Positions 1,467 through 63,716 of a DNA stretch of 64,000 nucleotides are shown here, in pieces. This DNA is from Octopus sinensis. Its lineage: Eukaryota. Position 1 is the stretch's first letter. Each line of letters starts with the position of its first letter. The position numbers were made by a program, and so were the translations under genes. The DNA is taken from assembly GCF_006345805.1 (NCBI RefSeq), contig NC_043017.1, positions 14,446,001 through 14,510,000 on the forward strand, written 5' to 3'. The notes under the pieces are model-generated. The model searched no databases. It had not been told where the DNA came from and saw nothing but the letters and a program-made list of their open reading frames with translations.

Positions 1467-1573
1467 AACAATTGCAGCATGGAAGGTGTTTGTAAGCCAT
1501 TTAAGAAACACACAAAAGCCGCTTTTGTGTGTTTCTTAAATGGCTTACAAACACCTTCCACGTTGCAATTGTT
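1467..1573. repeat. Near-perfect palindrome (53-bp arms, 1-nt centre)
   Basis: aacaattgcagcatggaaggtg...cacaaaagc C gcttttgtg...ccacgttgcaattgtt, with 2 mismatches. Confidence 0.95.
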
Positions 1574-1629
1574 TTCGTTCCAGCACACGATCTCAGATCA
1601 AATCACTTGCTATGCAAGTACATCTCCAT

Positions 1630-5184: not shown

Positions 5185-7073
5185 TAATAATAATAATAAT
5201 AAAAATGGTGATGATGATGATGATGATGATTTCTTTCATTTACCAGTGGAGTGAAGGATGTGGGGCACAATATAAAGACAGACACAAAGTGTGAGGGTTT
5301 ACATATAATGAAATAAACAATAAATAAAAAACAAATAATAATAATAATATTCAATGCAATCAAGTGATTGAAGTAGGAGAGCAGACACTTATTTATTTAA
5401 AAAAATGAGAAGCTACAACACAATAAAGTGTTTTATCTGTGGAAAAGAAGAATTTGTGCGAGAAGGAAGAAGAGGAAAAGAGCAAAAGCTGAAAAGAGAA
5501 GTCAGTGGTTTGTGGAGTATAAAGGAAGGCAAAATGGTGTGAGGGATTGTGCGTATTGTTGGTAGAATAAAGGAGAAAATGAAATCAAGGTTAAAGAAGT
5601 CTGGGATTGGAAGACAAGCAGATCTACTACAGAAAACAAAGGAAATTGTTATAAAGAGTAAGGACCCTAAGGAATGGGGTCACAATTTGAAATGAAGAAA
5701 GAATCCTAAAAGACCTTTGGTCAATGGTTATGAACTGTTCTTTGAAATGTAAAAGCAACATAAGATCTGTCTGTGATATGGACAACAACAACAACAATAA
5801 TAATATGTAAATAAATAAATATGTTACTTATCTTGAAGACTTTGATGAAGGTAATCCAAAATTGAAAAGTGGAAACGATGTGTTTTGAGAGTAATCCAAA
5901 AGATGTAGAACACAAGAAGTGCCTCACCTTCTACATACATGCACGTGAGTGTGTGTGTAGATATAACCATATATATATATGTATATATATTTATACACAC
6001 ACACACACATACACACAACGCACTAGTTCAGGTAAAGACTCAAGTAACTGGAGCTATGATAAATTAATCCAAGTCATTTGAACCTGGTACTCCACATGGA
6101 AATATTAGTAATATTTATGTTATAAACATAAGCTGCGAGAATGAAATATAAAAAGAACAACAACAACAAACATGCAGAGGTAAGAGAATTTCTGAGAAGA
6201 AAATTGGTAGAAATAGCAAAGCGAACAGAAATGAAAGAATTTGTAGAAAATGGCAATCTGTGTTTTGGTTTTGATAATCATTTTCAAAGTTTAGAAAACA
6301 GAAAGGATTTCAGACAATTGAAGAAAGAAATGGCACAGGTTTGTGATAATAGCTAAATGGAATAATTTGAAATTAAATAATGAACAAACCAGGTTATTGT
6401 CAAATATTATGCATGCATTTTATACATGTATGTGCACACATACACACACAGATAAAGTGCAGGTGTAGCTGTGTGATTAAGAAATTTGCTTCCCAGTCAC
6501 ATGATTTGGGGTTCAGTCCCACTGTGTTGCATCCTTGGACAAGTGTCTCCTACAATAGCTCCATGACCAATTAAAATTGATTGGATTTGGCTGACAGAAA
6601 CTGATCAAAACCTATTGTGTGTGTGTGTGTATGTGATCTTGTCTCGCCATTGCGTGATAGTTGAGTCACTTTCATTCAAGAAGCGTAATTCATTGCTAAT
6701 ATTTTGTGTGAACATGTCTGGCCACATGATGCTTGGAAACTTTTCCAGGTTTCCAGAGTTTACAGAGGTAGATTTTCTACAGCTGGATGCCCTCCCTGTC
6801 ACCAACCTTCACCTGTTTCCAAGTGAAGCCAGATACATTCTGCAGAACACTGAAAACAAGTGACACTGCATGTATGACATTGATGCTCATTTACAACTAC
6901 CATACAACGTCAGGACAAGGAGACACCAGCACACACACACCCATACAACTGTCTGTCTGTCTGGCCGTCCATCCATCCATCCATCTATCTATCAATTTAT
7001 CTGTCAGCACAAACACAATGGACATTCAGTCAACCAAATCCACTCACAAGGCTTTGGTCAGCCTGGCACTATA

Positions 7074-8343
7074 CGAGGGGCGTTCAATAAGTAATGCCCC
7101 TGACCCACTTGCAGTTGTTTGATCTAGCTGAAATTTTGCATGTGCACTTATTTATACCTCTATAGATTAAGTGGCGAATTACAGCTCTGAACTAATTGTG
7201 GTTTCTGATTTACAGGTGTTTGAACTGAGTCAAGTGTGAAATGGAGCCTGTTGAGTGTCGAGCAGTGATCTGGTTTTTGTATTTGAAAGGACGCACACCA
7301 CGGGAGACTTTTGATGAAATGAAAGTAACTTATGGTGATGATGCCCCATCATATGACCTTGTAAAACGCTGGCATTGTGAATTCAAACATAGTCGGAACT
7401 CTGTGGAAACAGCTCCCAGATCTGGTCGCCCCCTTCTGCCGTTGATGAGACGTCTGTCCGTCAAGTTGAGGCTGCCATTTTCGAAGGTCAACGCATAACT
7501 ATTCGCCAAATAGCCCATAAGGTCAAGATTAGTACCGGGTCTGTGGAAACTATCATTCATGACCATTTGCATATGCAAAAGGTGTCTGCCAGATGGATTT
7601 CCAGGTTGCTCACACCTTTCCAGAAGCAAGAACGTGTTGAGTGCTCGAGGATGAATTTGGAGATGTGCCAAGAAGATGAGTCAAAATTTTTCAAAAGACT
7701 GATCACACAGGATAAAACCTGGGTCCATCACTATGATCCATAGACCAAAGCCCAGTCAATGCAGTGAAAGCACCGTGACTCACCTCCTCCAAAGAAGGCA
7801 AGGGTGCAGCCCTCCGCTGACAAGGTTATGCTCACAGTCTTCTGGGACCAGGACGGAGTAGTGATGACAGATTTCCTGGCAAAGGGTACCACAATTACAG
7901 GAGCCTATTATGCTTCACTTTTGAGGAAATTAAGAGAAGCTATCAAAATCAAGAGGCGGGGCAAGATCAGCAAAGGCATCCTCCTCCTGCAGGACAACGC
8001 TCCGGTCCACAACTCGCGTGTCGCCAGATCAGAAGCACAGGCATGCAGCTATGAACTCCTCCCCTTGCACCCTCTGATTTTCACCTCTTCCCAGCCATGA
8101 AGTTGATTTTGAAAGGAAAGCGTTTCCCAGATGATGCAGCCTTGATTTCTGAAGTCAAGTCGTGGTTGGAGGACCAAGCTGGGATCTTCTACAAAAACGG
8201 TCTCCAGAGCTGTATCAAACGATGGGAGAAATGCATAACTCTGGGTAGTTCCTATGTAGGAAAAGACTAATAACTGTGCCAAGTGTCGTTGCTCTACTGC
8301 TATGGGAAGTGGGTCAGGGGCATTACTTATTGAACGCCCCTCG
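7074..8343 (+). mobile_element. Full-length mariner (DD34D) DNA transposon
   Basis: Approx. 37-bp perfect TIRs (cgaggggcgttcaataagtaatgcccctgacccactt) with TA duplications at 7072-73 and 8344-45; inserted into a SINE. Confidence 0.95.
7241..8270 (+). pseudogene. Mariner transposase pseudogene
   Basis: HTH segment (RAVIWFLYLKG..WHCEFK..PRSGRP), KVSARWISRLL, ITQDKTWVHHYDP, KVMLTVFWD, LLQDNAPVH and LAPSDFHLF. Contains frameshifts and stops, and the YSPD motif is lost. Confidence 0.92.
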
Positions 8344-9639
8344 TAGTAGAAGACACTTGCTCAAGTTGTCAGGCAGAGAGGCTGAACACAAAACTATGTT
8401 GTTAGAAAGTAAAACTCTTCTTACTACAACATTCACATCTGCATGTTGCATGTCTTATACACACACACACACACGTCATGATTCTGCATTGCTTCTGAGG
8501 AGCTTTCCTGTAAATAGTTGCATTGAAAGCTGCAAATCAATGTCTGGGCTAATGAGTTATTCTTTGCTTTCATTGACATGTGATGGTTATACTTATTGCT
8601 GAGAAGACTTGTATAATAAATATCATCATTGCTATCATCTTCATCATTGCTTCAATGTTTAATGCATGGGCCAGCCACAGCATTTTGAGGTAAAACCTTT
8701 CAACAGCCAAGTGCTCTTCCTGTCACAAACAATCATCAGTTTCCAAACAGATACTACCCCAAGTGCTTTGAACAGCGAACAGCTCAATGGTTGGACATAT
8801 TTTGATGGAAGATTGTAAAGCAGTAATGCTACCATTTGTATAAACACTGTGTTTCAATCAGCAAGTAAAACATCAAGACAAGAGGAACACACACACAGTT
8901 TCTCTCCACTAATCCACTGACTATGCATTTATAGTAAAAGACACCAGCACACATTGACCAAGCAAGCGATATTTGTGCAAATATGTTTATGTTTACACCA
9001 GTGTTGTTTATGCTACAATCCTTTGTGTCCCATAACTTAGCAGATCAACAAATAGTGAATGACGAAATAAGCATCAGACTGAAATAAATAATATCTATGA
9101 TGACCAATATGTCGAAGGCTGTAATCCAGGTTGGCCACAGTTCAGTGACTGAAACAAGGAAAAGTCTGCAAGAATTCAGTGAAGATTAATTCTAAAGAAA
9201 GTGATGAGAGAGGAATGGAGTGAAACACAGTAAAAGAGTCACAGTTTATGAAATAATTAAAAGGCACCAGCTGCTTATTACAGCATAATATTTCAGCTGC
9301 CTGGCACAATTTTCATAGATTTCATAGATTAATTAACCAAATGGTATGAAGAAAGTCACAGCTAGTCTTCTTACATTAAATTGTCTTAACCAAATTGTTG
9401 AAATAAGCATCTTAGATGACTTTGATGCTCTCATCAATGAATAGGTTTCCTTGTTCAGAGCAATGATTGGGAAGATGTGTAATTACTTCCCTTCTCCATC
9501 ACTCTCCTCATTTTCTAATCCCTTCATGGACACAACACTCAAAGATTGCCTTATCATTTCTATTCATATTCTTTTACTCCTTTCTATCATTGGATCATGA
9601 CCATTCTGGAGCATTGCATTAAAGGGTTTACTGGATCAT

Positions 9640-10178
9640 ATCAAGCCCAGTCTTAAAGTTGGCACATACACATGTACACAAACATGCATATATATGTGTG
9701 TGTGTGCATGTGTGTATGCATACACCATCACAAGACAATTTTCAGTGCACCTCCCACCCAATAAATTCTGTCACGGACAATATATATATATATAAATATA
9801 TATATCATCATCATCATCGTCACAAACACACGCGACACCCCGACACCAAACCAGCCAGACGATGATGCAACGCGCTGGACAACCGGCAGCGTGGTGCTCC
9901 TTCGGTCATCGCAGCGTTTCATCACCGCTTCAGTCATCCAGCGCATTGCATCGTCGTCTGGCCGGTTTGGTGTCGGGGTGTCGCGTGTGTTTGTGACGAT
10001 GATGATGATGATATATAAATATTTATATATATATATATTGTCCGTGACAGAATTTATTGGGTGGGAGGTGCACTGAAAATTGTCTTGTGATGGTGTATGC
10101 ATACACACATGCACACACACACATATATATGCATGTTTGTGTACATGTGTATGTGCCAACTTTAAGACTGGGCTTGAT
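9640..10178. repeat. Long inverted repeat (approx. 240-bp arms, approx. 60-nt loop)
   Basis: 9640-9852 is the reverse complement of approx. 9964-10178 with only a 2-nt indel. The same peptide appears on both strands in the ORF track. Confidence 0.95.
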
Positions 10179-19656: not shown

Positions 19657-20717
19657 CATATATACCACACACACACACATACAGAAGTACATATGCACAT
19701 TTACATATATACACAAACACATATATGTACACATACACACATATAAAAATATGCATAGGTAAAGTTCTATTTAACTGGGCAAAAGTATGATAAAAGGGAG
19801 CTCAATAATGAGGAGGATCATAGCTTGTTTAGTGAGCTGCAAAGTAAAGACGACAATTTAGCTCAGCTGATGACCTGCAGTTGATAAGGCAAATGTTTTA
19901 GAAATGTCTCTTCTTTGTTAAATCAATCACAGAATCAAGACAATAGAATGTGTCTCAAGACGCACACATATATATATACACATACACATACATAAATATG
20001 CATAAACACATACACACACACATATATTAATATATGTATGCAAGTTCTTCTATCCAGAAATTTATTATTATCACACACACACACACACACTCACTCCTAT
20101 GTATGGAGGAGGGAGGAGTGAATGTGTGCTTGTCCATTACTTTAAACACTAAATATTCCTGTTTTTTCTCTTTCATTTTATTAGAACTTCCTAATTTTTG
20201 AATCAGCCAGCAAATCTCTGCGGATTCCACAAACATGTGCAGTCCCCAATATAAATGACAGGATGAACAAGGCTGTGACAACTTGTGTGACAATGATAAC
20301 ATTTCTAATTAGAGCTACACTCCTTCTAATCAGATTCCATAATTTCCATCTCTCCACCAACCCAAACCAAAGAATTGCATTAGCACTAAATGGGACCCAT
20401 GAAACAGATAAGGCACCTCTACATAATTATGTACTGAGTCCTTATTTGAGCAAGTGTTTTCCAGGATCTATATTTATACATCTTGATATATATGTACATA
20501 TGTACAGAAACATTAGCATTGTGAAGGCAATCCAGTGGAGATCTCTGGTTTACCAGCTCCTATCAAACCTACCAAACCATGGCAACATGGGAAACAGAGG
20601 TTCAATAATAATAATGATTCAAGCATACACACATACACATAGATATATGTGCATATACACACACATATATATAATTATATATACTTTATTTAAAAGCAGC
20701 AGAAATTCAACAAAACC

Positions 20718-20753
20718 TGTTACTCGGAGTTTCACGTTCCCGTTCGTCAGACA
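20718..20753 (-). ncRNA. Minimal type-I hammerhead ribozyme (Penelope pLTR-derived)
   Basis: Minus strand tgt-CTGACGA-acg GGAA cgt-GAAAC-tccga-GTA-aca: stem I tgt/aca, intact CUGANGA core, stem II acg/cgt, GAAAC, short stem III (ACT ccg AGT) and GUA triplet. Confidence 0.75.
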
Positions 20754-20854
20754 CTTTTCTTAAAATAAAGCATATTACTCTAACCCCGGCATCGGAGTAC
20801 TCTTTTTTCCACCTTGTTTCACATGTGTTTACTCCGGTATAAATATATATATAT

Positions 20855-20895
<41 letters not shown>

Positions 20896-21741
20896 TATAC
20901 TTTATATATATATACCACACATATACTTTATATATATAATCTAATTATATATATATATGTAAATAAAATAATGATATTATAATATATATATATATATATA
21001 TATATGTCTATACATATATATATACACACACACACATATATATCTATATATGATAACACCACTATATATACATATACAAACATATATATATATACACCAA
21101 ACATACATATATATATATATAATACATACATATATATTATACACATGTACATATATATATCTACATATATATCTACATTATATATTCTATACATAATCTA
21201 TATATACTATTACATATATATACATATATATATATATACATATACATACATATATATATATATATACATATACATACATATATATATATATATACATATA
21301 CATACATATATATATATATATACATATACATACATATATATATATATATACATATACATACATATATATATATATATACATATACATACATATATATATA
21401 TACATACACATACAATAGAATAAATACATAAATAATATATATATATATAGACAGATACATACATATATATTATACATATATCTACAAATAATATATACAT
21501 ATATATACATATATATATATACATATATATATACACACATATATATATACATATATATACATAGATATACATATATATATATATATACATATATAAATAT
21601 ACATATATAAATATACATATACATACATATATATATATACATATATAAATATACATATACATACATATATATATACATATATAAATATACATATATAATA
21701 TACATATACATACATATATAAATATACATATATATATACAT

Positions 21742-21774
<33 letters not shown>

Positions 21775-21896
21775 CATAATACATACATATATATATATAT
21801 ATATATAATACATATATACATACATATATATATATATATATACATATATACATACATATATATATATATATACACATATATACATATCCATAATAT

Positions 21897-21928
<32 letters not shown>

Positions 21929-22020
21929 CACATATATACATACTATATATATATATATATTACACATATATACATACATTTTTGCTAAATGGTCGTATTG
22001 ACAAGTTTCGTTTTTTTTCA

Positions 22021-22106
22021 CTTTCCCGAAGAGAAGATTGCATTGTTTATACCTTTTATTTCTTTTGAATAAGTATCAGTGGAATTTTTGAAACATATGT
22101 AGAAAG
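22021..22106 (+). ncRNA. Hammerhead ribozyme-like motif with long stem II and U4C core variant
   Basis: ctttc-CCGAAGA-gaagatt...aattttt-GAAAC-atat-GTA-gaaag: 5-bp stem I, palindromic stem III (ACATATGT), and core CCGAAGA instead of CTGAAGA. Confidence 0.6.
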
Positions 22107-23244
22107 AAAAATACGTGTTTAAACCTGCGTTGACTCCATTTTTTATTCCTATATTCAAATATTCAACGTAAACACGAAGTTTCAACCTTTATAAACAAGG
22201 AGTTACATACATACATATATATATACATACATACATATATATATACATACATACATATATATATATATACATACATATATATATATATACATACATATAT
22301 ATATATAATACATACATTATAGATACATACTATATATCTATATAAGCATACCATACATATACATAAGAACATATAATATATATATACATACATATATATA
22401 TACATACATATATATATATTATACATACATATATATACATATATATATATATACATACATTATTATATACATATATATTATACATATATATATCTATACA
22501 TACATATATATATACAACATTCTATTATACATACATATATATACATATATATTACATACATATATATATATATACATAACATATATATACATATATACCT
22601 ATATATATATACCACATATATATATACATATACATATATATATTTATAGTACATATATATATACATATATATACAATAATATATATACACATCTATAGAT
22701 ATATATATATATACATACATATATATATACATATATATACATATATATATACCATATATATAGTATAACATATATACATACATATATATAGACATATATA
22801 CTATACATATATACATACCATATATATATATATCCATACATATATATATATACATCATATATATATTACTACATATATATATACATACAATATATATATA
22901 TATACATACATATATATATACATACATATATATATATATATACATACATATATTACTACATATCATATAATATACATATACATACATATACATACATATA
23001 TATATACATACATATATAACATATATACATATAATATACATATATACATCATATTATATACATCCATATATATATATATACATACATATAATATACATAT
23101 ATACATACATATATACATACATATATATATATATACATACATATATATACATATATCATACATATATATCATATATATAGCATACATATATACATCATAT
23201 ATATATACATACATATATATAATATATATAATATATACATACTA

Positions 23245-23313
<69 letters not shown>

Positions 23314-23446
23314 CATACATATATACAATACATAACCTAGATATCTATATGTCATATATCATATATATACATACATATATATATATAATATGTATAATAT
23401 ATAAATATGTATATATATATATGGTACATGATATGTATTATATGTA

Positions 23447-23480
<34 letters not shown>

Positions 23481-23736
23481 GTAATGTAATATATATACAT
23501 GTATATATTATAATATCTATATATATATGATATATATATGTTATCTATATAAGATGTATATATGTATAAATATATGTATATGTATATTGATATATATATA
23601 TGTAGATTATATATATATATGTATATGTATTATATGTAATTGTATATATAATATATGTATATATATATATGTAATATAATATATATAGATATATAATATT
23701 GTTATATATTATATATGTATATATATTAGATATAAT

Positions 23737-23768
<32 letters not shown>

Positions 23769-23868
23769 TTATATATAAATATTATTAGAGACAAACCACT
23801 ATTTTGCAAAACAAACAAGGAAAGACTTAATCAATACATAAAATTTTAATAAATAGTCAAAAAAACCG

Positions 23869-23911
23869 CCACTACAATCGTTTCTTGTCTTGATCGACAA
23901 TCTTCAGGTGG
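23869..23911 (-). ncRNA. Minimal type-I hammerhead ribozyme (left arm of palindrome, identical inverted copy)
   Basis: Exact reverse complement of 23960-24002. Confidence 0.75.
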
Positions 23912-23959
23912 ACTTCCAATAAGTCAGTTTTCATAATTTGAAACTGACTTATTGGAAGT

Positions 23960-24002
23960 CCACCTGAAGATTGTCGATCAAGACAAGAAACGATTGTAGT
24001 GG
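23960..24002 (+). ncRNA. Minimal type-I hammerhead ribozyme (right arm of palindrome)
   Basis: ccac-CTGAAGA-ttgtc gatcaa gacaa-GAAAC-gatt-GTA-gtgg: stems I and II are perfect and the core is intact. Confidence 0.78.
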
Positions 24003-24451
24003 CGGTTTTTTTGACTATTTATTAATTTTATTATTGATTAAGACTTTCTTGTTTGTTTTGCAAAATAGTGGGTTTGTCTCTAATAATATTTTATAATATT
24101 TTACTATAAATTGGATTTAATCCTAATCTGATTTTTTTCCCTGTAAATTTGGATTTATTCCCTAATATTTATTATTATATATATATATATATATTATATA
24201 TATATATATGTATATGTATATATGTATATATATATATGTATATGTATTATATATATGTATATATGTATATGTATATATATAATATATGTATATGTATATA
24301 TAATGTATATATGTATATGTATGTATATATGTATATGTATATATATATATATGTATATATGTATATGTATATATATTTAATATGTATATTTATGTATATA
24401 TGTATATGTATATATATATTATGTATATATGTATATGTATATATATATATG

Positions 24452-24550
<99 letters not shown>

Positions 24551-24557
24551 TATATAC

Positions 24558-24620
<63 letters not shown>

Positions 24621-25390
24621 CTATATATATATATATATATCTATATATATATATAATATATACATATATTATACATATATATATATATATTATATACATA
24701 TATATACATATATATCCCTATATATATACATCTATATATATATATATATATAGATATATACATATTATATACATATATATATATACATATATACATATCT
24801 ATACATACATATACTACTACATATATTATACATATATATACATATACATATATATATAGCATATATACATATATATATACATATATATATTAATACATAT
24901 ATACATATATATATACATATATATATACCATATATATACATATATTATATACATATATATATACATATACATATATATATACATATATATACATATCCAT
25001 ATATAATATAATACATATATATATATACATATAAATACATATATATATACATACATATACATATATATACATACATATATACTATATATATAATAATATA
25101 TACATATATATATATACATATATACATATATATACATATATACATATATATATATACATACATATATATATACATACACATATATATATACATCATATAT
25201 ATATATATCATACATATATATACCATACATATATACATACATACATTATATATACATACATATATACATACATACATATATATATACATACATATATACA
25301 TACATACATATATACATACATACATATATACATACATACATTATATATATATAACATATATATATATATACATATATACATAATATATAC

Positions 25391-25439
<49 letters not shown>

Positions 25440-25547
25440 CAATATACATATACATATATACATATACATATATATATATACATATATACATATATACATA
25501 TACATATATATATATATACATATATACATATACATATATACATATAC

Positions 25548-25578
<31 letters not shown>

Positions 25579-26340
25579 CATATATATAAATATATATATA
25601 CATATGTATACATATATATAAATATTTACATCTATCTATATATACATGAATATGAGCGTCCAATTACACTATACTTGTTCCACATCCTCGCATTTTTGTT
25701 ATTTCTCTTTGTGTTTTCATTTTTGGATTAACTTCGTATATAAATACTCCAACCGCCTTCGTTTTTTGTTTATTTTCGTAAACTTTCCCTTTATATATGA
25801 ATATACATACACACACTCACACACACACATATATATATATTAAACTATACCCATATATATGTAATCATATATACACGCAGATGAGTTTGTGTGTGTGCTG
25901 TCCCCCCCCCCTCCCTGTTTCACTCATAATGAACTGATGTTCCCAAATCAATTGAAGCAGACAACATGCCCAAGGTGTCCTGCACAAGAATCAAAAGACC
26001 AGGCAGTTTTGAAAACATAGGCACACAACTGTGCCTCACACTATTATATCTTCATCATTTAATGTCCGTGTTCCAAGTTGGCATGGCTTGGATGGGTGGA
26101 CGGGATGTGTTAGCCACGATGCCCCAACGTCAGCTTTTGCAGGTTTCCTACAGGTGGACCCCCTTCTTGCCGATATGCAGGTGTGTGTGTGTGTGTGTTT
26201 ACACGTGTTTAAAGCAGGCAAATGACAAGAGAGTGAAAGCGGACAGGGAAAGGTGCAATGTGACAACATAAACAAAAGAAAGACTTTAATTACATCAAAT
26301 ATAATTAGTGAGTTTACGAAATGTAATAAAAGCTGTAAAT

Positions 26341-26349
26341 AAAGGATAT
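26341..26349 (-). other. U12-type (minor spliceosome) AT-AC 5' splice site
   Basis: Minus strand reads GAA TGG GG|ATATCCTTT, an exact match to the U12 donor consensus. It lies at the position where vertebrate Cav alpha-1 genes carry their first minor intron. Confidence 0.92.
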
Positions 26350-26543
26350 CCCCATTCAATGATGATCTTTGCATACTTGCGGATGAAGTTCTCCTCGCTG
26401 AAGATGAACAGCGACCGATTGGTAGAAGACCCCATGCCTGGAAGACTGATGGTGGCCGCCTTTTTGGCCACGAACCTCAGAGATCCATCATGTGTGTACT
26501 CAGAGTCGTCTCTGTTGCCACTGTCCGCTGAGAAGGTATTCAT
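26350..26543 (-). CDS. cac: First coding exon of a Cav2-type (cacophony / CACNA1A-B-E class) voltage-gated calcium channel alpha-1 subunit
   Basis: Translates MNTFSADSGNRDDSEYTHDGSLRFVAKKAATISLPGMGSSTNRSLFIFSEENFIRKYAKIIIEW-G. NRSLFIFSEENFIRKYAKIIIEWG is the conserved Cav2 pre-IS1 segment (vertebrate [24 protein letters not shown]). A polypyrimidine tract and AG (tgtttgtttctctcAG) precede G-ATG. The exon ends in phase 2 at a U12 donor. Confidence 0.93.
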
Positions 26544-26544
26544 C

Positions 26545-39846: not shown

Positions 39847-39952
39847 ACAAAGTCTACCAAGTGACTGGCAATACAAACAAAGTCTACCAAGTGACTGGCA
39901 ATACAAACAAAGTCTACCAAGTGACTGGCAATACAAACAAAGTCTACCAAGT
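39847..39952. repeat. Perfect 30-bp minisatellite (3.5 copies)
   Basis: Unit acaaagtctaccaagtgactggcaatacaa, head to tail with no spacers. Confidence 0.95.
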
Positions 39953-54558: not shown

Positions 54559-54774
54559 CATATGTTTTGAGCTTTATAGAAAAACTTATTCTTACATCAA
54601 TGCATAATTGACATAATAGATAGTTCAAAAGCCCTTTTTCTCAAACCTTTTATAATGTGATACAAGTCTTTGGTGTAGCAATTGCATGCGGCTGAACAGG
54701 GCTTTTGAACTATCTGTTATGTCGATTATGCATTGATGTAAGAATAAGTTGTTCTATAAAGCTCGAAACATATG
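54559..54774. repeat. Inverted repeat (approx. 77-bp arms, approx. 60-nt spacer), inverted partial pLTR
   Basis: catatgttttgagctttatag...ttcaaaagccct is the near reverse complement of agggcttttgaac...ctataaagctcgaaacatatg. Confidence 0.88.
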
Positions 54775-54780
54775 TACCGC
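54688..54780 (+). ncRNA. Degenerate hammerhead ribozyme motif with long stem II
   Basis: gcgg-CTGAACA-gggcttt...aaagctc-GAAAC-atat-GTA-ccgc: stems are intact, but G8 of CUGANGA is C. Confidence 0.55.
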
Positions 54781-54822
54781 AACATCCTCTGTATCCTATT
54801 TTTCATTTATTTCATTTGATAC

Positions 54823-54859: not shown

Positions 54860-57015
54860 TCTGATAGACTTAGGAAGGACCTTATAGCTTTCTTTCAAAG
54901 GATGGGCTTACGGATTACGATAGATACTAACCTGAATAGTGTAGATTTTTAGACGTAAATTTTAATGTAAGATCGGATAGATTTAAACCTTTCCGTAAGC
55001 CCAATGAAAAGCTATCGTATATTAGCAAAGATTCGAACCATCCACCAGTTATCCTTAGCAACTTAGTCAGCAATGTAGGTAGAAGAATATCTTCAATTTC
55101 TTCGGACGAGGCCGCATTCCATAATGCTGACCTATTACTTATTACGATAGCGCATTAAAGAATAGTGGATTCTCGGAGAAGATCCAGTTCAACCAGCTTA
55201 ATGCTAATAATAATGCTGCACGAAGAACTAGGACCAGGAAAGTTTTGTGGTTCAACCGGCTTTCAATTTGGCCGTAAAGACTAATATAGGTAAGGAATTT
55301 TTGAGATTAGTCTCTAAGCATTTTAAGCAGGGTCATAAATTCTACAGAATATTTAATAGAAGAACCCTGAAGGTTAGCTATTCTTGTTGCAGAAATTTCG
55401 CCTCTTACATTAGCCAACATAATAGGAAGCTAATTGAGATTAGACATGGTGCCGAGCCCATTAAGAAATGTAATTTCAAAAACGAAAGCTCCTGTCCGTT
55501 AGAAGGGAAATGTCTAGTGAAAGGAGTAGTTTATAGAGCCAAGGTGCAAGTGGAAGGCTCATCGGAATACAAGACATACACAGGGGCTTCAGAAAATTCA
55601 TTTAAAACAAGATTTTATTCTCATAAGAATTCTTTTAAATACCCAGAGAATAGGAAGAAACCAGCCTAGCAAAATATGTCTGGGAACTAAAAGAAAAGGA
55701 AGCCCCACCTTTCAACGTGACATGGAGCATTCTGGACAGGGCGGCACCATACAGGCATGGGGCTTACAAATATAATTTCAAGTGCAGGCTTTGCTTATTA
55801 GAGAAAATGCACATCTTATTCAAAGACAATAATTCTTTGAATCAAAGAAGTGAGTTAATGAACTTATGTAGGCACGCGACTAAATTTAAAATGTCGAATA
55901 TAAATATACCATATGGATAGAGTATATATTTTGTATTTTGATTTTTGATTTTGATTTTGACTCTTGAGCGCTAAGACGGATCTATAGCAAAGTCTTATTG
56001 TTTCTACATATATATTAGGAAAAACCTACAAACTTTGTTTTCATGTTATTGTATTGCATAGGATTACCTTGATTATTTATATTACCTTGATTATTTATAA
56101 ATGACCCAAAATAGGATGTTATATTTTATTTTATATGTCTTTCGTATATATTTTTATTAATGCACCCATTTTTTTAAAAGCAATGTTTTTTTTAAAAAAA
56201 AAGCAATGTTGTCAAAATTAGAATGTTTATATAAGTATGTGTATAGCAAAGCATATGTATTTGTAAGCATGCGTATCTGTGTATGTGTAAGTGAAAGTAT
56301 GCTTGTGCTTAAGCACGCATACACACGACGGTATGTATATGTATCAATTCAAACTTGTGTATGTATACTGGCCTCTATAGATGCCAATAACATCGCTACA
56401 AGTTTTTTCCCCACCCCTCCTTCGTTCCTTTTTCTCTCTTTCCCTTTCTTTCGTTCCCCCTCCTTGCTCAGTATATGAGAATTGCTACATAGATGAATTT
56501 TAGCTTGCGTGCGAGACGGTTTGCGTGAATATATGTACACATGCTTTTATGTGTATAATTTAGATTCATATTCATACGTCTGTATATGTATGTATGGCGT
56601 TTACGCGCATCCTTTTGTGTATGTTGATATATATATGTGGATTTTAATATAAATATGTATTGCAGTATTTATAACAGGTTTAATTTCTATGCATTAATTT
56701 GTACTGTCTTCATTAACGGCAATAGGTTTTTTCCTCAGTTTTTTCCTCGGATTTTATAATTTTTATAATTTTTATAAGTTTTTTTATATATATATACATA
56801 TATTTTTGACCTTTTTGTTTATCGCTCGAAGATTGACCGCTTTTTCTAAAGGGCCAATCAAACAAGTCCATTTCTTTTTAAAGGTGTAGCGTTTGTAAGA
56901 GTATAGATTGAATTAATATATAAGTTCCATTCTAGCAAAAACTGTCTGATGAACGACAACGAGAAACTCAGAGTAACAGATTTTGTTGAATTTTCTGCTG
57001 CTTAAAATAAAGTAT
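54860..57015 (+). mobile_element. 5'-truncated Penelope-like element (RT C-terminus, GIY-YIG endonuclease, long 3' UTR with hammerhead)
   Basis: VDFLDV, PFRKPNE..YISKDSNHPP, KVSYSC, CPLEGKCLVKGVVY..YTG.SENSFKTRFYSH and CRLCLLEK; both ends in (TA)n. Confidence 0.88.
56942..56979 (+). ncRNA. Hammerhead ribozyme motif at the 3' end (pLTR) of a Penelope-like element
   Basis: ctgt-CTGATGA-acgacaacga-GAAAC-tcaga-GTA-acag. Same family and downstream tail as the 20718-20753 copy; stem II is partly decayed. Confidence 0.65.
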
Positions 57016-57075
57016 ATATATATATATATATTATATATATATATATATATATGTATATAAATATATATATATATG

Positions 57076-57279: not shown

Positions 57280-59209
57280 TGGATTAAAAAATGATAAAAC
57301 AATAACAATCAAAGAGGCTGCTAAAGGGAGTGTAGTTGTCTTAATGGACATGACATTTTACATAACTTTAGTACTATCTATGTCGGAAGACACAACATAT
57401 TATGAAAAGGCACAAAACTACAGTCAGCAAAAAATAATGAGAGAACTAAAATCCATGTTAAACCTATACAAAGAAGGGCTCACCGACAAAGAATATGATT
57501 ATATGACAAATTTCACAAGTAAAACCAGCCAATTCTACGGTATTCCCAAGATACACAAAAGTGAGAAAATAAGTAACACATGCAAGATAGCCACAGACAA
57601 AATAATTAAAGTCGCTAATCCTAATGACCTCAAATTGAGACCCCAAATAGCAGGTCCCGCATGCGAAACCCACCGCCTCAGTAACTTTTTAGATACCCTC
57701 TTAAAACCATTCCTCAAACATGTCAAAAGCTATATAGGGGACGACCTGGATATGCTCAATCACCTGCCTAAAACAATAAACAAAAACACCCTACTAGTAT
57801 CCTTCGATGTAGTCAACCTCTATTCCAATATCCCCCACAACCTAGGAATAGAGGCATTCAATTCTTGCTAGAGAATTACGCCAACGAACTCCCACATCGC
57901 ATCAAAAAGGAATTCGTGATAGAAGGGGTTAAATTGATCCTGGAAAATAACTACTTCGCATTCAAAGACAACTTCTACCGACAAAAATCGGGGACTGCCA
58001 TGGGTATGCGAATGGCCCCCTCCTTTGCCAACCTAGTCATGGGATATCTAGAAATCAGTCTGTATCGTAAGGTTCTAGAAATATATGGCAGCCCTTTCTC
58101 CCTCTACATAGAAAACAACTGGAAGAGATACCTGTTTCATTCTTTGGCATGAAAATATAGAGAAACTCAAAGAATTCCAAGCAATTTTAAACGAACTGGA
58201 CGTAAACATCCAATTCACAATGGAATATAGCCAGCAACAACTCCCCTTCCTCGATATCCTCATTAAGAAAGCTAATAATGTAATAAAAACAGACATATAT
58301 TATAAGCCTACAGATTCTAAGCAATATCTTCCATTCAATTCATGCCACCCCAGACACACCAGGATGAATATCCCCTTCAATCTAGCAAAAAGGATATGTA
58401 CTATAGTTTCTAATGCAAACACCAGACACACACGACTACATGAACTAAAAGATACCCTCATTGCCAGGAACTACCCACCTTCACTAATTGACATATGCAT
58501 TCAACGTGCCCTTCAACTCAACACCCAGGAACTCAGACATCCCAAATTAAAGAAAAATTTACAACCAAAAGCCTTACCATACATCTCCACACACAACCCT
58601 CTCAACGATGAAGCCTTTGACACCATCCTCCAAAACATACCCTTGCTAAAAAAGGACCACAGAATGAACTTAATCCCCCAAACACACACCATCATAAAAA
58701 GCAAGAGACAGCCCAAATCTATGAAAAGTCTCCTAACACAAGCCCGAATACACTCTTCAACACAGAAGCCGACAGTAAAAAAATGTGGAAGACCCAATTG
58801 TGGGATATACGATTATCTAATTGAGGGATCAGAGTTCTTCAAACAGGGACAACTTTTCACAGTGAAAAGTAACTTCACATGTGCTTTGGAGAACCTGATA
58901 TACACATTAACCTGCTCTGGGTGTCAAGAGCAATACATAGGCCAAACAAAAAATAGTTTACGTTAAAGAATGGCCCTGCACAGATCCCAGATAAAAATTC
59001 CCCGAAACAGAAAAATAGCATTCAGCCAACACATAGACATTTGCGCCAACAACAAAATTCCAAGCTTCAGGATTTTTCCCCTCTACCAATTCAGGGACGA
59101 TACAACCTGGAGCCAGCGAATTAGTAAAAAAACTCTCTTTATTACAAAATACAGGCCCTTTCTGAATGCGTCTACGACAAACGACAAAACCACCTCAGCC
59201 TTAGAATAA
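57280..59209 (+). mobile_element. Penelope-like (Neptune-type) element, RT plus Zn finger plus GIY-YIG, pseudogenised
   Basis: KGSVVVLMD, FYGIPKIHK, LVSFDVVNLYSNIP, GTAMGMRMAPSFANL, LPFLD, YYKPTD..YLPFNSCHP, CGRPNC and NLIYTLTCSGCQEQYIGQT. The catalytic DD is deleted after WKRY. Confidence 0.92.
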
Positions 59210-62563: not shown

Positions 62564-63716
62564 TTAATGGCCAAAGATTTAGAAATTCTCTAATTTCTTA
62601 ATATTTCTGGGGTGAGGAGAGGCAAATATTTTGGCTCAATGAGCAATTATGATTTAATCTGATGTTAACTCCAGACATATTTTGATCTTGTTAAACCTCA
62701 TCAGCAAAGTTTTAGTTTCAATAAATCAACACGTCATTGACCAAATGTTTCCTTCTGGTCCCTACATAACTATTATTAATTATTAGATAATTGTTCATTA
62801 CTCTAGTAGCTATTATGGCATTAACTTTACTGTTTTACATTGTGCAAATTGTGTCCCTGGGTAATATTCCTCTACCATAGTTAATAGTTTTCAGTAAAAA
62901 ATGTTTCAAATGTTCAGATCTTAGGCACACTTTTGGAAATTTTCCATCTCAGACTTTTGTTGCTGTTGCTGTTGTTGTTGTTGTTGGTGGTGGTGGTAAT
63001 GGAGAATCAGTCACCTCAAGCTAACCCATGCTAGCATGGAAAATGGATGTTAAACGATGATGATGATGATGATGATGATTTGCACTGATGAGGGTCATTA
63101 TACTTTCACAGCCAGTTTACAGCTCCATAGAACAGTAGAGCCTTTACACATGCCCCTTGCATGGCAGAAAATGCTTCTTACTGTCAGCTACATGAAATAC
63201 TAAATGAGACACAGATTAAGCCATTTATGGGTTGTTTCAATTTAAATATATAGATACAAATCTTACCCTAACATTGCTTGATGCAAAAAAAGTGTGGGCT
63301 AAAATGTGTGTATGTGTGTGTATGTATACATGTAAGGTATTCCTATATGAATGGTATGTGTGTGTATATATATATATATATCTATGTATGTATATATATA
63401 TATATACTCAGAGTAACAGGTTTTGTTGAATTTTCTGCAGCTTTTAAATAAAGTATATATGTATATATATATATATGGATATATAAAAATATGTATGCAT
63501 TGATTGAAGTATGTGTCGTTGGTGTGTGTATGTGTGTGTGTGTGTGTGTATAGCACAGACATGGCTGTAATGTTAAGAATTTGTTTCCCAACTGCATGGT
63601 TTTGGGTTCAGTCCTACAGTGTGGCATCTTAGACGAATGCCTTCCACCATAGACCTGGAATGACCAATGTTTTGTGGCTGAATTTGATAGATGGAAATTA
63701 AAAGACCATCATATTA

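What the first reader, a model, noticed from the sequence alone, without database searches (positions are those of the whole stretch)
23777..24175. Back-to-back double hammerhead in a 315-bp palindrome
Seen: two identical intact hammerhead cores diverge around a 10-nt spacer, so either strand's transcript contains one ribozyme plus its full antisense. Only the right arm continues into an extra approx. 85-nt tail. Established: Penelope insertions often carry an inverted partial pLTR. Inference: the antisense arm is transcribed first on either strand, so the long hairpin should lock the ribozyme off. It is also an ideal ADAR or Dicer substrate, and A-to-I editing (extensive in coleoids) could unlock it. 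The stem II closing pair is U-A rather than the usual G-C, so activity is not guaranteed.
Basis: partly seen in the sequence, partly recalled or inferred. Interest (0 to 1): 0.75.

Follow-up and report, generated by a model that had tools for sequence, protein, structure and literature searches.

The report
Head-to-head Penelope-type ends with hammerheads
The palindrome with two back-to-back hammerhead ribozyme motifs is really in the sequence, but it is likely an ordinary leftover of a very common jumping-gene family, two end pieces that landed head-to-head in a TA repeat inside a calcium-channel intron, and its ribozymes are predicted to be silent.

Summary
Observation confirmed. There is a 315-bp imperfect palindrome (23777-24091; arms 149/155 identical, inner 85 bp exact), two identical type I hammerhead cores pointing outward, and an 84-nt tail on the right only. 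(1) Helix III is self-complementary, so the ribozyme is the dimer-dependent type: monomer active fold P about 0.02, while two copies co-fold as a double hammerhead. It is predicted to be nearly silent even without the antisense arm. (2) It belongs to a very high-copy family (6,572 contigs in one run). Copies end at either of two 3' points followed by TA repeats, and other head-to-head centres occur in two other runs. Two more palindromes with a one-sided tail lie in the same 64 kb. (3) It sits 2.2 kb inside the U12-type intron of a Cav2 calcium-channel gene, so the hairpin is likely transcribed. Inverted end copies, one-sided tails, TA targeting, opposite-strand hammerhead pairs and siRNAs from Penelope inverted repeats are all published. 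Simulated A-to-I editing freed the ribozyme in 0 of 480 molecules. The parent autonomous element was not found. Verdict: an ordinary Penelope-type insertion, low interest.

The parts
23777..23930 (-). Left arm: inverted copy of the element end, stopping at the short 3' end and running into (TA)n
   Evidence: a short end near 24095 followed by TA is seen in 17 contigs of run X1 (table 7)
23869..23911 (-). Type I hammerhead motif, sense on the Cav2 pre-mRNA strand; predicted cut at 23873
   Evidence: mirror of +23960-24002
23931..23940 (.). Head-to-head junction; predicted to fold as a 5-nt loop with a 1-nt bulge; mostly family 5' sequence
   Evidence: related junctions in X4 records 9 and 10 and in X6 (tables 4, 5c, 8)
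23941..24091 (+). Right arm: forward copy of the element end, with private 1-2 nt deletions relative to the family
23960..24002 (+). Type I hammerhead motif: stem I 4 bp, stem II 5 bp (U10.1-A11.1), self-complementary 8-nt helix III; predicted cut after 23998
   Evidence: family variant G23992A makes helix III a perfect palindrome
24092..24175 (+). One-sided 84-nt tail (long 3' end) with a predicted 10-bp stem-loop at about 24108-24134 and a 23-nt internal near-repeat; runs into (TA)n
   Evidence: deeply covered in all three large runs and ends in TA
20838..25644 (.). TA-type microsatellite array that hosts the insertion; target-site duplication cannot be read
26350..26544 (-). Host gene: N-terminal coding exon of a Cav2-type calcium channel, followed by a U12-type 5' splice site at 26349; the element lies 2,174 nt inside that intron
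   Evidence: PMC6259924

Best explanation
The palindrome is two short copies of the same hammerhead-bearing repeat end joined head-to-head in a TA microsatellite, likely inserted in one event by the protein of a Penelope-like retrotransposon and likely without function. Steps: (1, inferred from PMC11167929) a Penelope-like RT/GIY-YIG protein nicks both strands of AT-rich DNA and starts reverse transcription at two internal sites of the element RNA, giving one long-ended copy (with tail) and one short-ended copy. (2, inferred) both cDNAs run to about the same 5' point, 25-35 nt upstream of the hammerhead, and are joined there. (3, shown) the product is an inverted pair with a one-sided tail in (TA)n. 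(4, predicted) the hammerhead is of the dimer-dependent type, relevant only in tandem parent transcripts. (5, inferred) here it is read only as part of the Cav2 pre-mRNA intron, antisense first, so it would be buried in a roughly 150-bp hairpin that ADAR or Dicer may act on, as on any intronic inverted repeat, without switching the ribozyme on.
For: Family behaviour in four runs: 6,572 / 698 / 1,344 / 9 contigs laid; 3' ends at about 24095 (17 contigs in X1) and 24170-24179 (X6, X9), both followed by TA; in the three large runs summed depth is lower over the hammerhead than over the 3' part (X6 about 71,000 versus 440,000-526,000; crude, not a copy number); 5' ends at 23936 and 23938 joined to TA or to an inverted tail end (1 contig each, X9); other head-to-head centres (X4 records 9 and 10; X6 insertion behind 23928). 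Dimer type: G23992A at 47%, 83%, 54% and 25% of depth keeps helix III self-complementary; monomer active fold P=0.022; the co-fold minimum-energy structure of two copies is the double hammerhead at -21.4 versus 2 x -5.4 kcal/mol. Same window: palindromes with a one-sided tail ending in TA at 1468-1628 and 54559-54820, further hammerhead-like motifs at TA arrays (-20750, +22026, +54692, +56946), and RT/GIY-YIG-type ORFs starting at TA arrays. Literature: PMC8557442 (inverted 5'-truncated copy, tail at one end, (TA)n bias); PMC4209133 (dual minimal hammerheads 100-700 bp apart on opposite strands); PMC11167929 (both strands cut and extended, tail lies between two RT starts).
Against: No RT/endonuclease ORF is attached and the parent element was not found: no similarity to the 55900-57012 region behind the window's own GIY-YIG ORF (score 65 versus 69 +/- 9 in shuffles); 0 hits in metagenome, genome and viral collections, which are not eukaryote collections. 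The tail is 84 nt, against 30-40 nt reported. The motif lacks the usual G10.1-C11.1 pair, the extra base after A9 and the 7-8 bp stem II of published minimal hammerheads. 5' ends cluster within about 10 nt, which fits a discrete short element better than random truncation. The window's exact junction was not seen among the listed contigs.
Confidence: 0.8

Rival explanations
1. Snap-back variant of the same origin. The family is a discrete ~245-nt non-autonomous unit with a fixed 5' end whose first 13 nt form a micro-hairpin; the cDNA 3' end folds back on itself and primes the second arm, so one cDNA makes the palindrome.
For: The cDNA-sense 3' end at 23930 folds into a 4-bp stem with a 5-nt loop, and the window's centre equals such a fold-back plus one extra base in a homopolymer. 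The window and two X6 contigs appear to share the same right-hand start near 23930 (tables 4 and 5c; my reading of table rows, contigs not seen whole). Inner arms are identical.
Against: In the window the micro-hairpin is partly the palindrome itself, so the argument is circular there. It does not explain why the left arm stops at the family's short end. X4 record 9 lacks 10 nt of the centre. The 1468 and 54559 palindromes have different centres.
Confidence: 0.25
2. One reading: a functional ribozyme held off by its antisense and unlocked by A-to-I editing, acting on the Cav2 pre-mRNA.
For: It lies in a Cav2 intron with one hammerhead in sense orientation. The hairpin is very stable. Both cores are intact, and no core variant was listed in the family. 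Extensive editing in coleoids is recalled, not tested here.
Against: 0 of 480 simulated edited molecules released the ribozyme; with every A outside it made non-pairing, 79% of it stayed paired; core survival falls to 1.6% at 50% editing. The monomer fold is rare, and the two other minus-strand hammerhead motifs pair poorly with its helix III (-0.9 and -0.1 versus -5.8 kcal/mol). Published metazoan Penelope hammerheads show no monomer cleavage and weak dimer cleavage or need protein.
Confidence: 0.04
3. A monomeric piece of a non-LTR retrozyme family, inverted by chance.
For: Short, non-coding, high copy, type I hammerhead; retrozymes are proposed to derive from Penelope-like ends (10.64898/2026.07.22.740005).
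Against: No head-to-tail tandem here; no tail-to-head joint among the 2 joints of table 5 and 3 rows of table 5c; the ends seen do not lie at the cleavage site; no extended stem I for loop contacts.
Confidence: 0.08
4. Assembly or read artefact (fold-back long read).
For: The right arm carries several private 1-2 nt deletions typical of long-read consensus error; the exact centre is not among the listed contigs; palindromes are error-prone.
Against: Flanks are not mirror images and the tail is one-sided; the left arm stops at a family-typical end; related centres exist in contigs of two other studies; the same anatomy recurs with other families in the window.
Confidence: 0.05

Closest known systems
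Inverted 5'-truncated copy plus one-sided tail of EN+ Penelope-like insertions (Craig et al. 2021, PMC8557442, Fig. 2 legend; tail mechanism in Frangieh et al. 2024, PMC11167929)
   Same: Head-to-head inverted copies, tail at one end only, (TA)n target, hammerhead in the terminal region, two alternative 3' ends roughly 95 and 175 nt downstream of the predicted cut
   Different: Both copies are only 150-245 nt with no ORF; tail 84 nt instead of 30-40; 5' ends cluster tightly; parent element not identified
Minimal / short-helix-III type I hammerheads of metazoan Penelope-like elements (Cervera and de la Pena 2014, PMC4209133)
   Same: Conserved core, 4-bp stem I, small self-complementary helix III, predicted dimer folding; that paper already notes pairs 100-700 bp apart on opposite strands
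   Different: U10.1-A11.1 instead of G-C, no extra base after A9, stem II 5 bp; the two cores here start only 57 nt apart
Rearranged Penelope copies with long inverted repeats in Drosophila (Evgen'ev 2013, PMC3681739)
   Same: Inverted repeats from Penelope insertion as a source of dsRNA; siRNAs reported to match the inverted regions
   Different: Here small RNAs and editing were not tested; transcription would come from a host intron
Animal non-LTR retrozymes (Cervera and de la Pena 2020, PMC7229834; Li et al. 2026 preprint)
   Same: Short non-coding high-copy repeat with a type I hammerhead, probable dependence on Penelope-like proteins
   Different: Not in head-to-tail tandem, ends not at the cut site, no circular RNA shown

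Membership tests
Type I hammerhead, dimer-dependent (metazoan Penelope type) | Conserved core (CUGANGA, GAAA, NUH) with stems I and II | tested here: met
Type I hammerhead, dimer-dependent (metazoan Penelope type) | Very short, self-complementary helix III favouring a double hammerhead | tested here: met
   monomer P=0.022; co-fold MFE is the double hammerhead; family variant keeps the symmetry
Type I hammerhead, dimer-dependent (metazoan Penelope type) | Usual but not universal: G10.1-C11.1, extra base after A9, stem II of 7-8 bp | tested here: not met
   U-A pair, no extra base, 5 bp, against PMC4209133; no variant listed at these places in four runs
Type I hammerhead, dimer-dependent (metazoan Penelope type) | Self-cleavage | not testable with these tools
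   needs an in vitro assay
Autonomous Penelope-like element | RT plus GIY-YIG ORF in the element | tested here: not met
   no ORF in the arms; not filed as an autonomous element
Penelope-type terminal fragment / non-autonomous derivative | Sequence link to the end of an identified autonomous element | tested here: inconclusive
   no match to the window's own element end; no genome held; 0 hits in three non-eukaryote collections
Penelope-type terminal fragment / non-autonomous derivative | Inverted copy joined at the 5' end | tested here: met
   other junctions
Penelope-type terminal fragment / non-autonomous derivative | Tail at one end only; two alternative 3' ends in the family | tested here: met
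   (table 7); length 84 nt versus 30-40 reported
Penelope-type terminal fragment / non-autonomous derivative | Insertion in (TA)n / AT-rich DNA | tested here: met
Non-LTR retrozyme | Head-to-tail tandem of at least two hammerhead-bearing units | tested here: not met
   locus is head-to-head; no tail-to-head joint listed; definition
Non-LTR retrozyme | Linear and circular monomer RNA | not testable with these tools
   only contigs available; no holder on record as RNA
MITE / foldback DNA transposon | Symmetric terminal inverted repeats ending the element on both sides, with a target duplication | tested here: not met
   one-sided tail; copies without the palindrome (X9); duplication unreadable in TA

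The most novel reading that the evidence does not exclude
The antisense arm is what lets a hammerhead-bearing insertion survive inside a neural gene. Head-to-head copies are self-neutralising and are favoured in introns over sense single or tandem copies, and this one gives the U12-type intron of the Cav2 channel a 150-bp ADAR-binding hairpin that tunes its splicing or editing.
Probability: 0.05. Interest if true: 0.6.

Novelty: new member of a known kind. Interest (0 to 1): 0.17.

Why it matters
Little as a single locus: it is one of very many copies, in an arrangement already drawn in the Penelope literature. The family could still be a useful dataset. It is abundant, has two discrete 3' ends and tightly clustered head-to-head junctions, so a genome-wide list of junctions could separate dual priming from snap-back as the source of inverted Penelope copies, a step PMC11167929 leaves open. 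It also shows a family-wide U10.1-A11.1 hammerhead that Rfam misses. Any effect on Cav2 RNA processing would matter more, but nothing here shows one.

Tried and rejected
Rfam at gathering score: 0 hits in the window; E-value mode gave only generic hairpin (microRNA-type) matches below threshold, rejected as a consequence of the palindrome. Own-genome searches were impossible because no genome is held, so the fraction of palindromic copies could not be counted. Exact-pattern scans of metagenome, genome and viral contigs: 0 hits each. No second copy of this family in the window. No link to the 55900-57012 region. Sequencing runs: no RNA holder listed; X9 is only guessed to be RNA and covers the family, not this locus, so expression is untested. 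Depth dips at 24025-24054 reflect this copy's private differences and are not a finding. Pfam scans of four window Penelope-type ORFs and four homologues gave 0 families; the RT/GIY-YIG assignment rests on precomputed domains of homologues and on reading P0001/P0004; pairwise comparisons with P0004 were not significant. No second Cav2 exon was found between 1 and 26349, so the intron's far end is not seen. Lunse et al. (PMC5785218) is not held; only its title and a review's summary were seen. No paper with measured rates for U10.1-A11.1 was read (listing only). Earlier-finding look-ups by sequence, place and the first word set returned nothing. ADAR unlocking was rejected by simulation, with inosine approximated as G or as non-pairing and minimum-energy folds only.

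Full report
Observation. The sequence at 23777-24175 is an island in a 4.8-kb TA-type microsatellite. The arms 23777-23930 and 23941-24091 align at 149 of 155 columns; the inner 85 bp are exact. A descriptor scan of both strands of the 64-kb window finds exactly two type I hammerheads, at +23960-24002 and -23911..23869; 60 locally shuffled windows gave 0.017 hits per window. Stem I has 4 bp, stem II 5 bp closed by U-A, and the predicted cut follows GUA at 23998. An 84-nt tail follows the right arm only.

The ribozyme type. The eight bases of helix III are self-complementary. As a monomer the active fold has probability 0.022, whereas the minimum-energy co-fold of two copies is the double hammerhead at -21.4 kcal/mol. 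In the family, G23992A, which makes helix III a perfect palindrome, is carried by 47%, 83%, 54% and 25% of depth in the four runs, one of only three substitutions listed. This is the dimer-type hammerhead described for metazoan Penelope-like elements. PMC4209133 (parts 1-2 of 4 read) reports no cleavage by a single motif, weak cleavage by dimers, and dual motifs 100-700 bp apart on opposite strands. PMC11167929 (main-text section read; passages) found the anole motif inactive without protein and dispensable for insertion in vitro. This motif departs from that consensus in having U10.1-A11.1, no extra base after A9 and a shorter stem II. No variant was listed at the U-A pair in any run, so it is a family trait; its effect on rate is untested.

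The family. Of 24 runs listed, 20 from 10 studies and seven organism codes hold part of the stretch, none above 0.64 of its words. I laid 4 of them on 23895-24180: 6,572, 698, 1,344 and 9 contigs matched, with summed depths up to 2.3 million (not a copy number, but far above a single locus). Loose ends (24 of 146 shown) include TA directly after about 24095 (17 contigs, X1) and after 24170-24179 (X9, X6), that is, the short end of the left arm and the long end of the right arm. Two X9 contigs begin at 23936 and 23938, joined to TA or to an inverted piece of the tail end. Centre-spanning contigs exist but differ from the window's: X4 record 9 (10 nt shorter, no mismatch, depth 24.5), X4 record 10 (5 mismatches, 5 gaps) and an X6 contig with 6 extra bases behind 23928 (depth 18.8). 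A further X6 row (depth 119) shows an inverted 5' piece joined to 23930; that reading is mine, from table rows. The exact window junction is not among the 32 pieces shown (8,642 not shown). Where the arms differ, the runs mostly carry the left-arm state, so the right-arm deletions are private mutations or assembly errors.

The neighbourhood shows the pattern is routine. Palindromes with a one-sided tail ending in TA occur at 1468-1628 and 54559-54820, the second with a degenerate hammerhead. Further hammerhead-like motifs lie at -20750, +22026 and +56946 beside TA arrays, and at -16299; chance rates were 0.067 per window and 0 in 40 shuffles. Broken ORFs at 54860-55890 and 57284-59200 start at TA arrays. 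The second has 112 homologues, most with precomputed RT and/or GIY-YIG domains; the first has 6 homologues, up to 716 aa. Neither could be tied to this family. PMC8557442 (passages) describes the inverted 5'-truncated copy, the one-sided 30-40 bp tail and the (TA)n bias. PMC3681739 (passages) reports siRNAs matching Penelope inverted repeats.

Host gene. An exon at -26544..26350 encodes the N-terminal region of a Cav2-type channel (best solved-structure match E=5.6e-05; molluscan homologues, best 90% identical). It ends at a U12-type donor at 26349, the conserved D1S1 intron of these channels (PMC6259924, passages). No further exon lies in the window, so the element is 2,174 nt inside an intron that appears to exceed 26 kb. 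Transcription on the minus strand is therefore likely (inferred, not shown).

Mechanism. Best reading: a Penelope-like protein cut both strands of the microsatellite, primed two cDNAs at the two internal start sites, and the copies were joined at their 5' ends. The anatomy and family ends are shown; the enzymology is inferred from PMC11167929. The snap-back rival rests on a 4-bp micro-hairpin at the 5' end and is not excluded. In the Cav2 pre-mRNA the antisense arm comes first and the hairpin is predicted at -236 kcal/mol, so the lock is real in prediction, but it locks a motif that also lacks a partner. With random editing at 10-80% of adenosines, and inosine treated as G or as non-pairing, the ribozyme was released in 0 of 480 molecules, while survival of its six essential adenosines fell from 53% to below 0.1%. 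Editing or dicing of the hairpin remains plausible and untested.

Comparison and novelty. It works like a Penelope-type end insertion and meets the structural tests. It is not an autonomous element, the parent is unidentified, and it fails the retrozyme and MITE tests. I found no paper describing this particular family (searches; one search listed 20 of 51 papers). The octopus repeat paper PMC13282606 (parts 1-2 of 3 read) does not discuss hammerheads in the parts read; its supplement (listed, not read) and deposited library could already contain the family. Also seen: 10.64898/2026.07.22.740005 (part 1 of 5 and passages; supplements not seen), PMC7229834 (passages), PMC6765202 (passages), PMC7334843 (passages, nothing relevant). 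Verdict: real, ordinary, a new member of a known kind; interest 0.17.

Noticed in passing
window 26350-26544 (-), donor at 26349: N-terminal exon of a Cav2-type calcium channel followed by the conserved U12-type intron, which appears longer than 26 kb and holds the finding.
   Followed up: yes
window 1468-1628: 53-bp-arm palindrome with a one-sided tail of about 55 nt ending in (TA)n; same anatomy as the finding, different family, no hammerhead found.
   Followed up: partly
window 54559-54820: Inverted partial copy next to a degenerate hammerhead (+54692, one core mismatch, long stem II insert, palindromic helix III) with a tail into (TA)n.
   Followed up: partly
window 20684-20845 (-), 56897-57027 (+), 63407-63453 (+): A second hammerhead-bearing repeat family ending about 37 nt after the motif in (TA)n; the 56946 copy lies between two broken Penelope-type ORFs.
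   Followed up: partly
window 21975-22210: Another island in the same TA array with a degenerate hammerhead (+22026) sharing the helix III of the 54692 motif.
   Followed up: partly
window 54860-55890 and 57284-59200: Two broken Penelope-type RT/GIY-YIG ORFs beginning at TA arrays; the first resembles short (~715 aa) proteins, possibly the Hydra clade (not tested).
   Followed up: partly
window 9640-10178: Near-perfect inverted duplication (about 240 bp arms almost identical, with internal microsatellites and a GC-rich unpaired centre); origin unexplained.
   Followed up: no
window about 23340 and 24490: The microsatellite switches from C-containing to G-containing strand and back, so the insertion sits in an inverted segment of about 1.1 kb within the array.
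   Followed up: no
window 25648-25795: A further non-repetitive island at the edge of the TA array, unidentified.
   Followed up: no
window 39847-39952: 30-bp unit repeated 3.5 times at 100% identity.
   Followed up: no
window 7072-8345: Mariner-like element with 39-bp perfect inverted ends and a partial DDE transposase match (PF01359).
   Followed up: no
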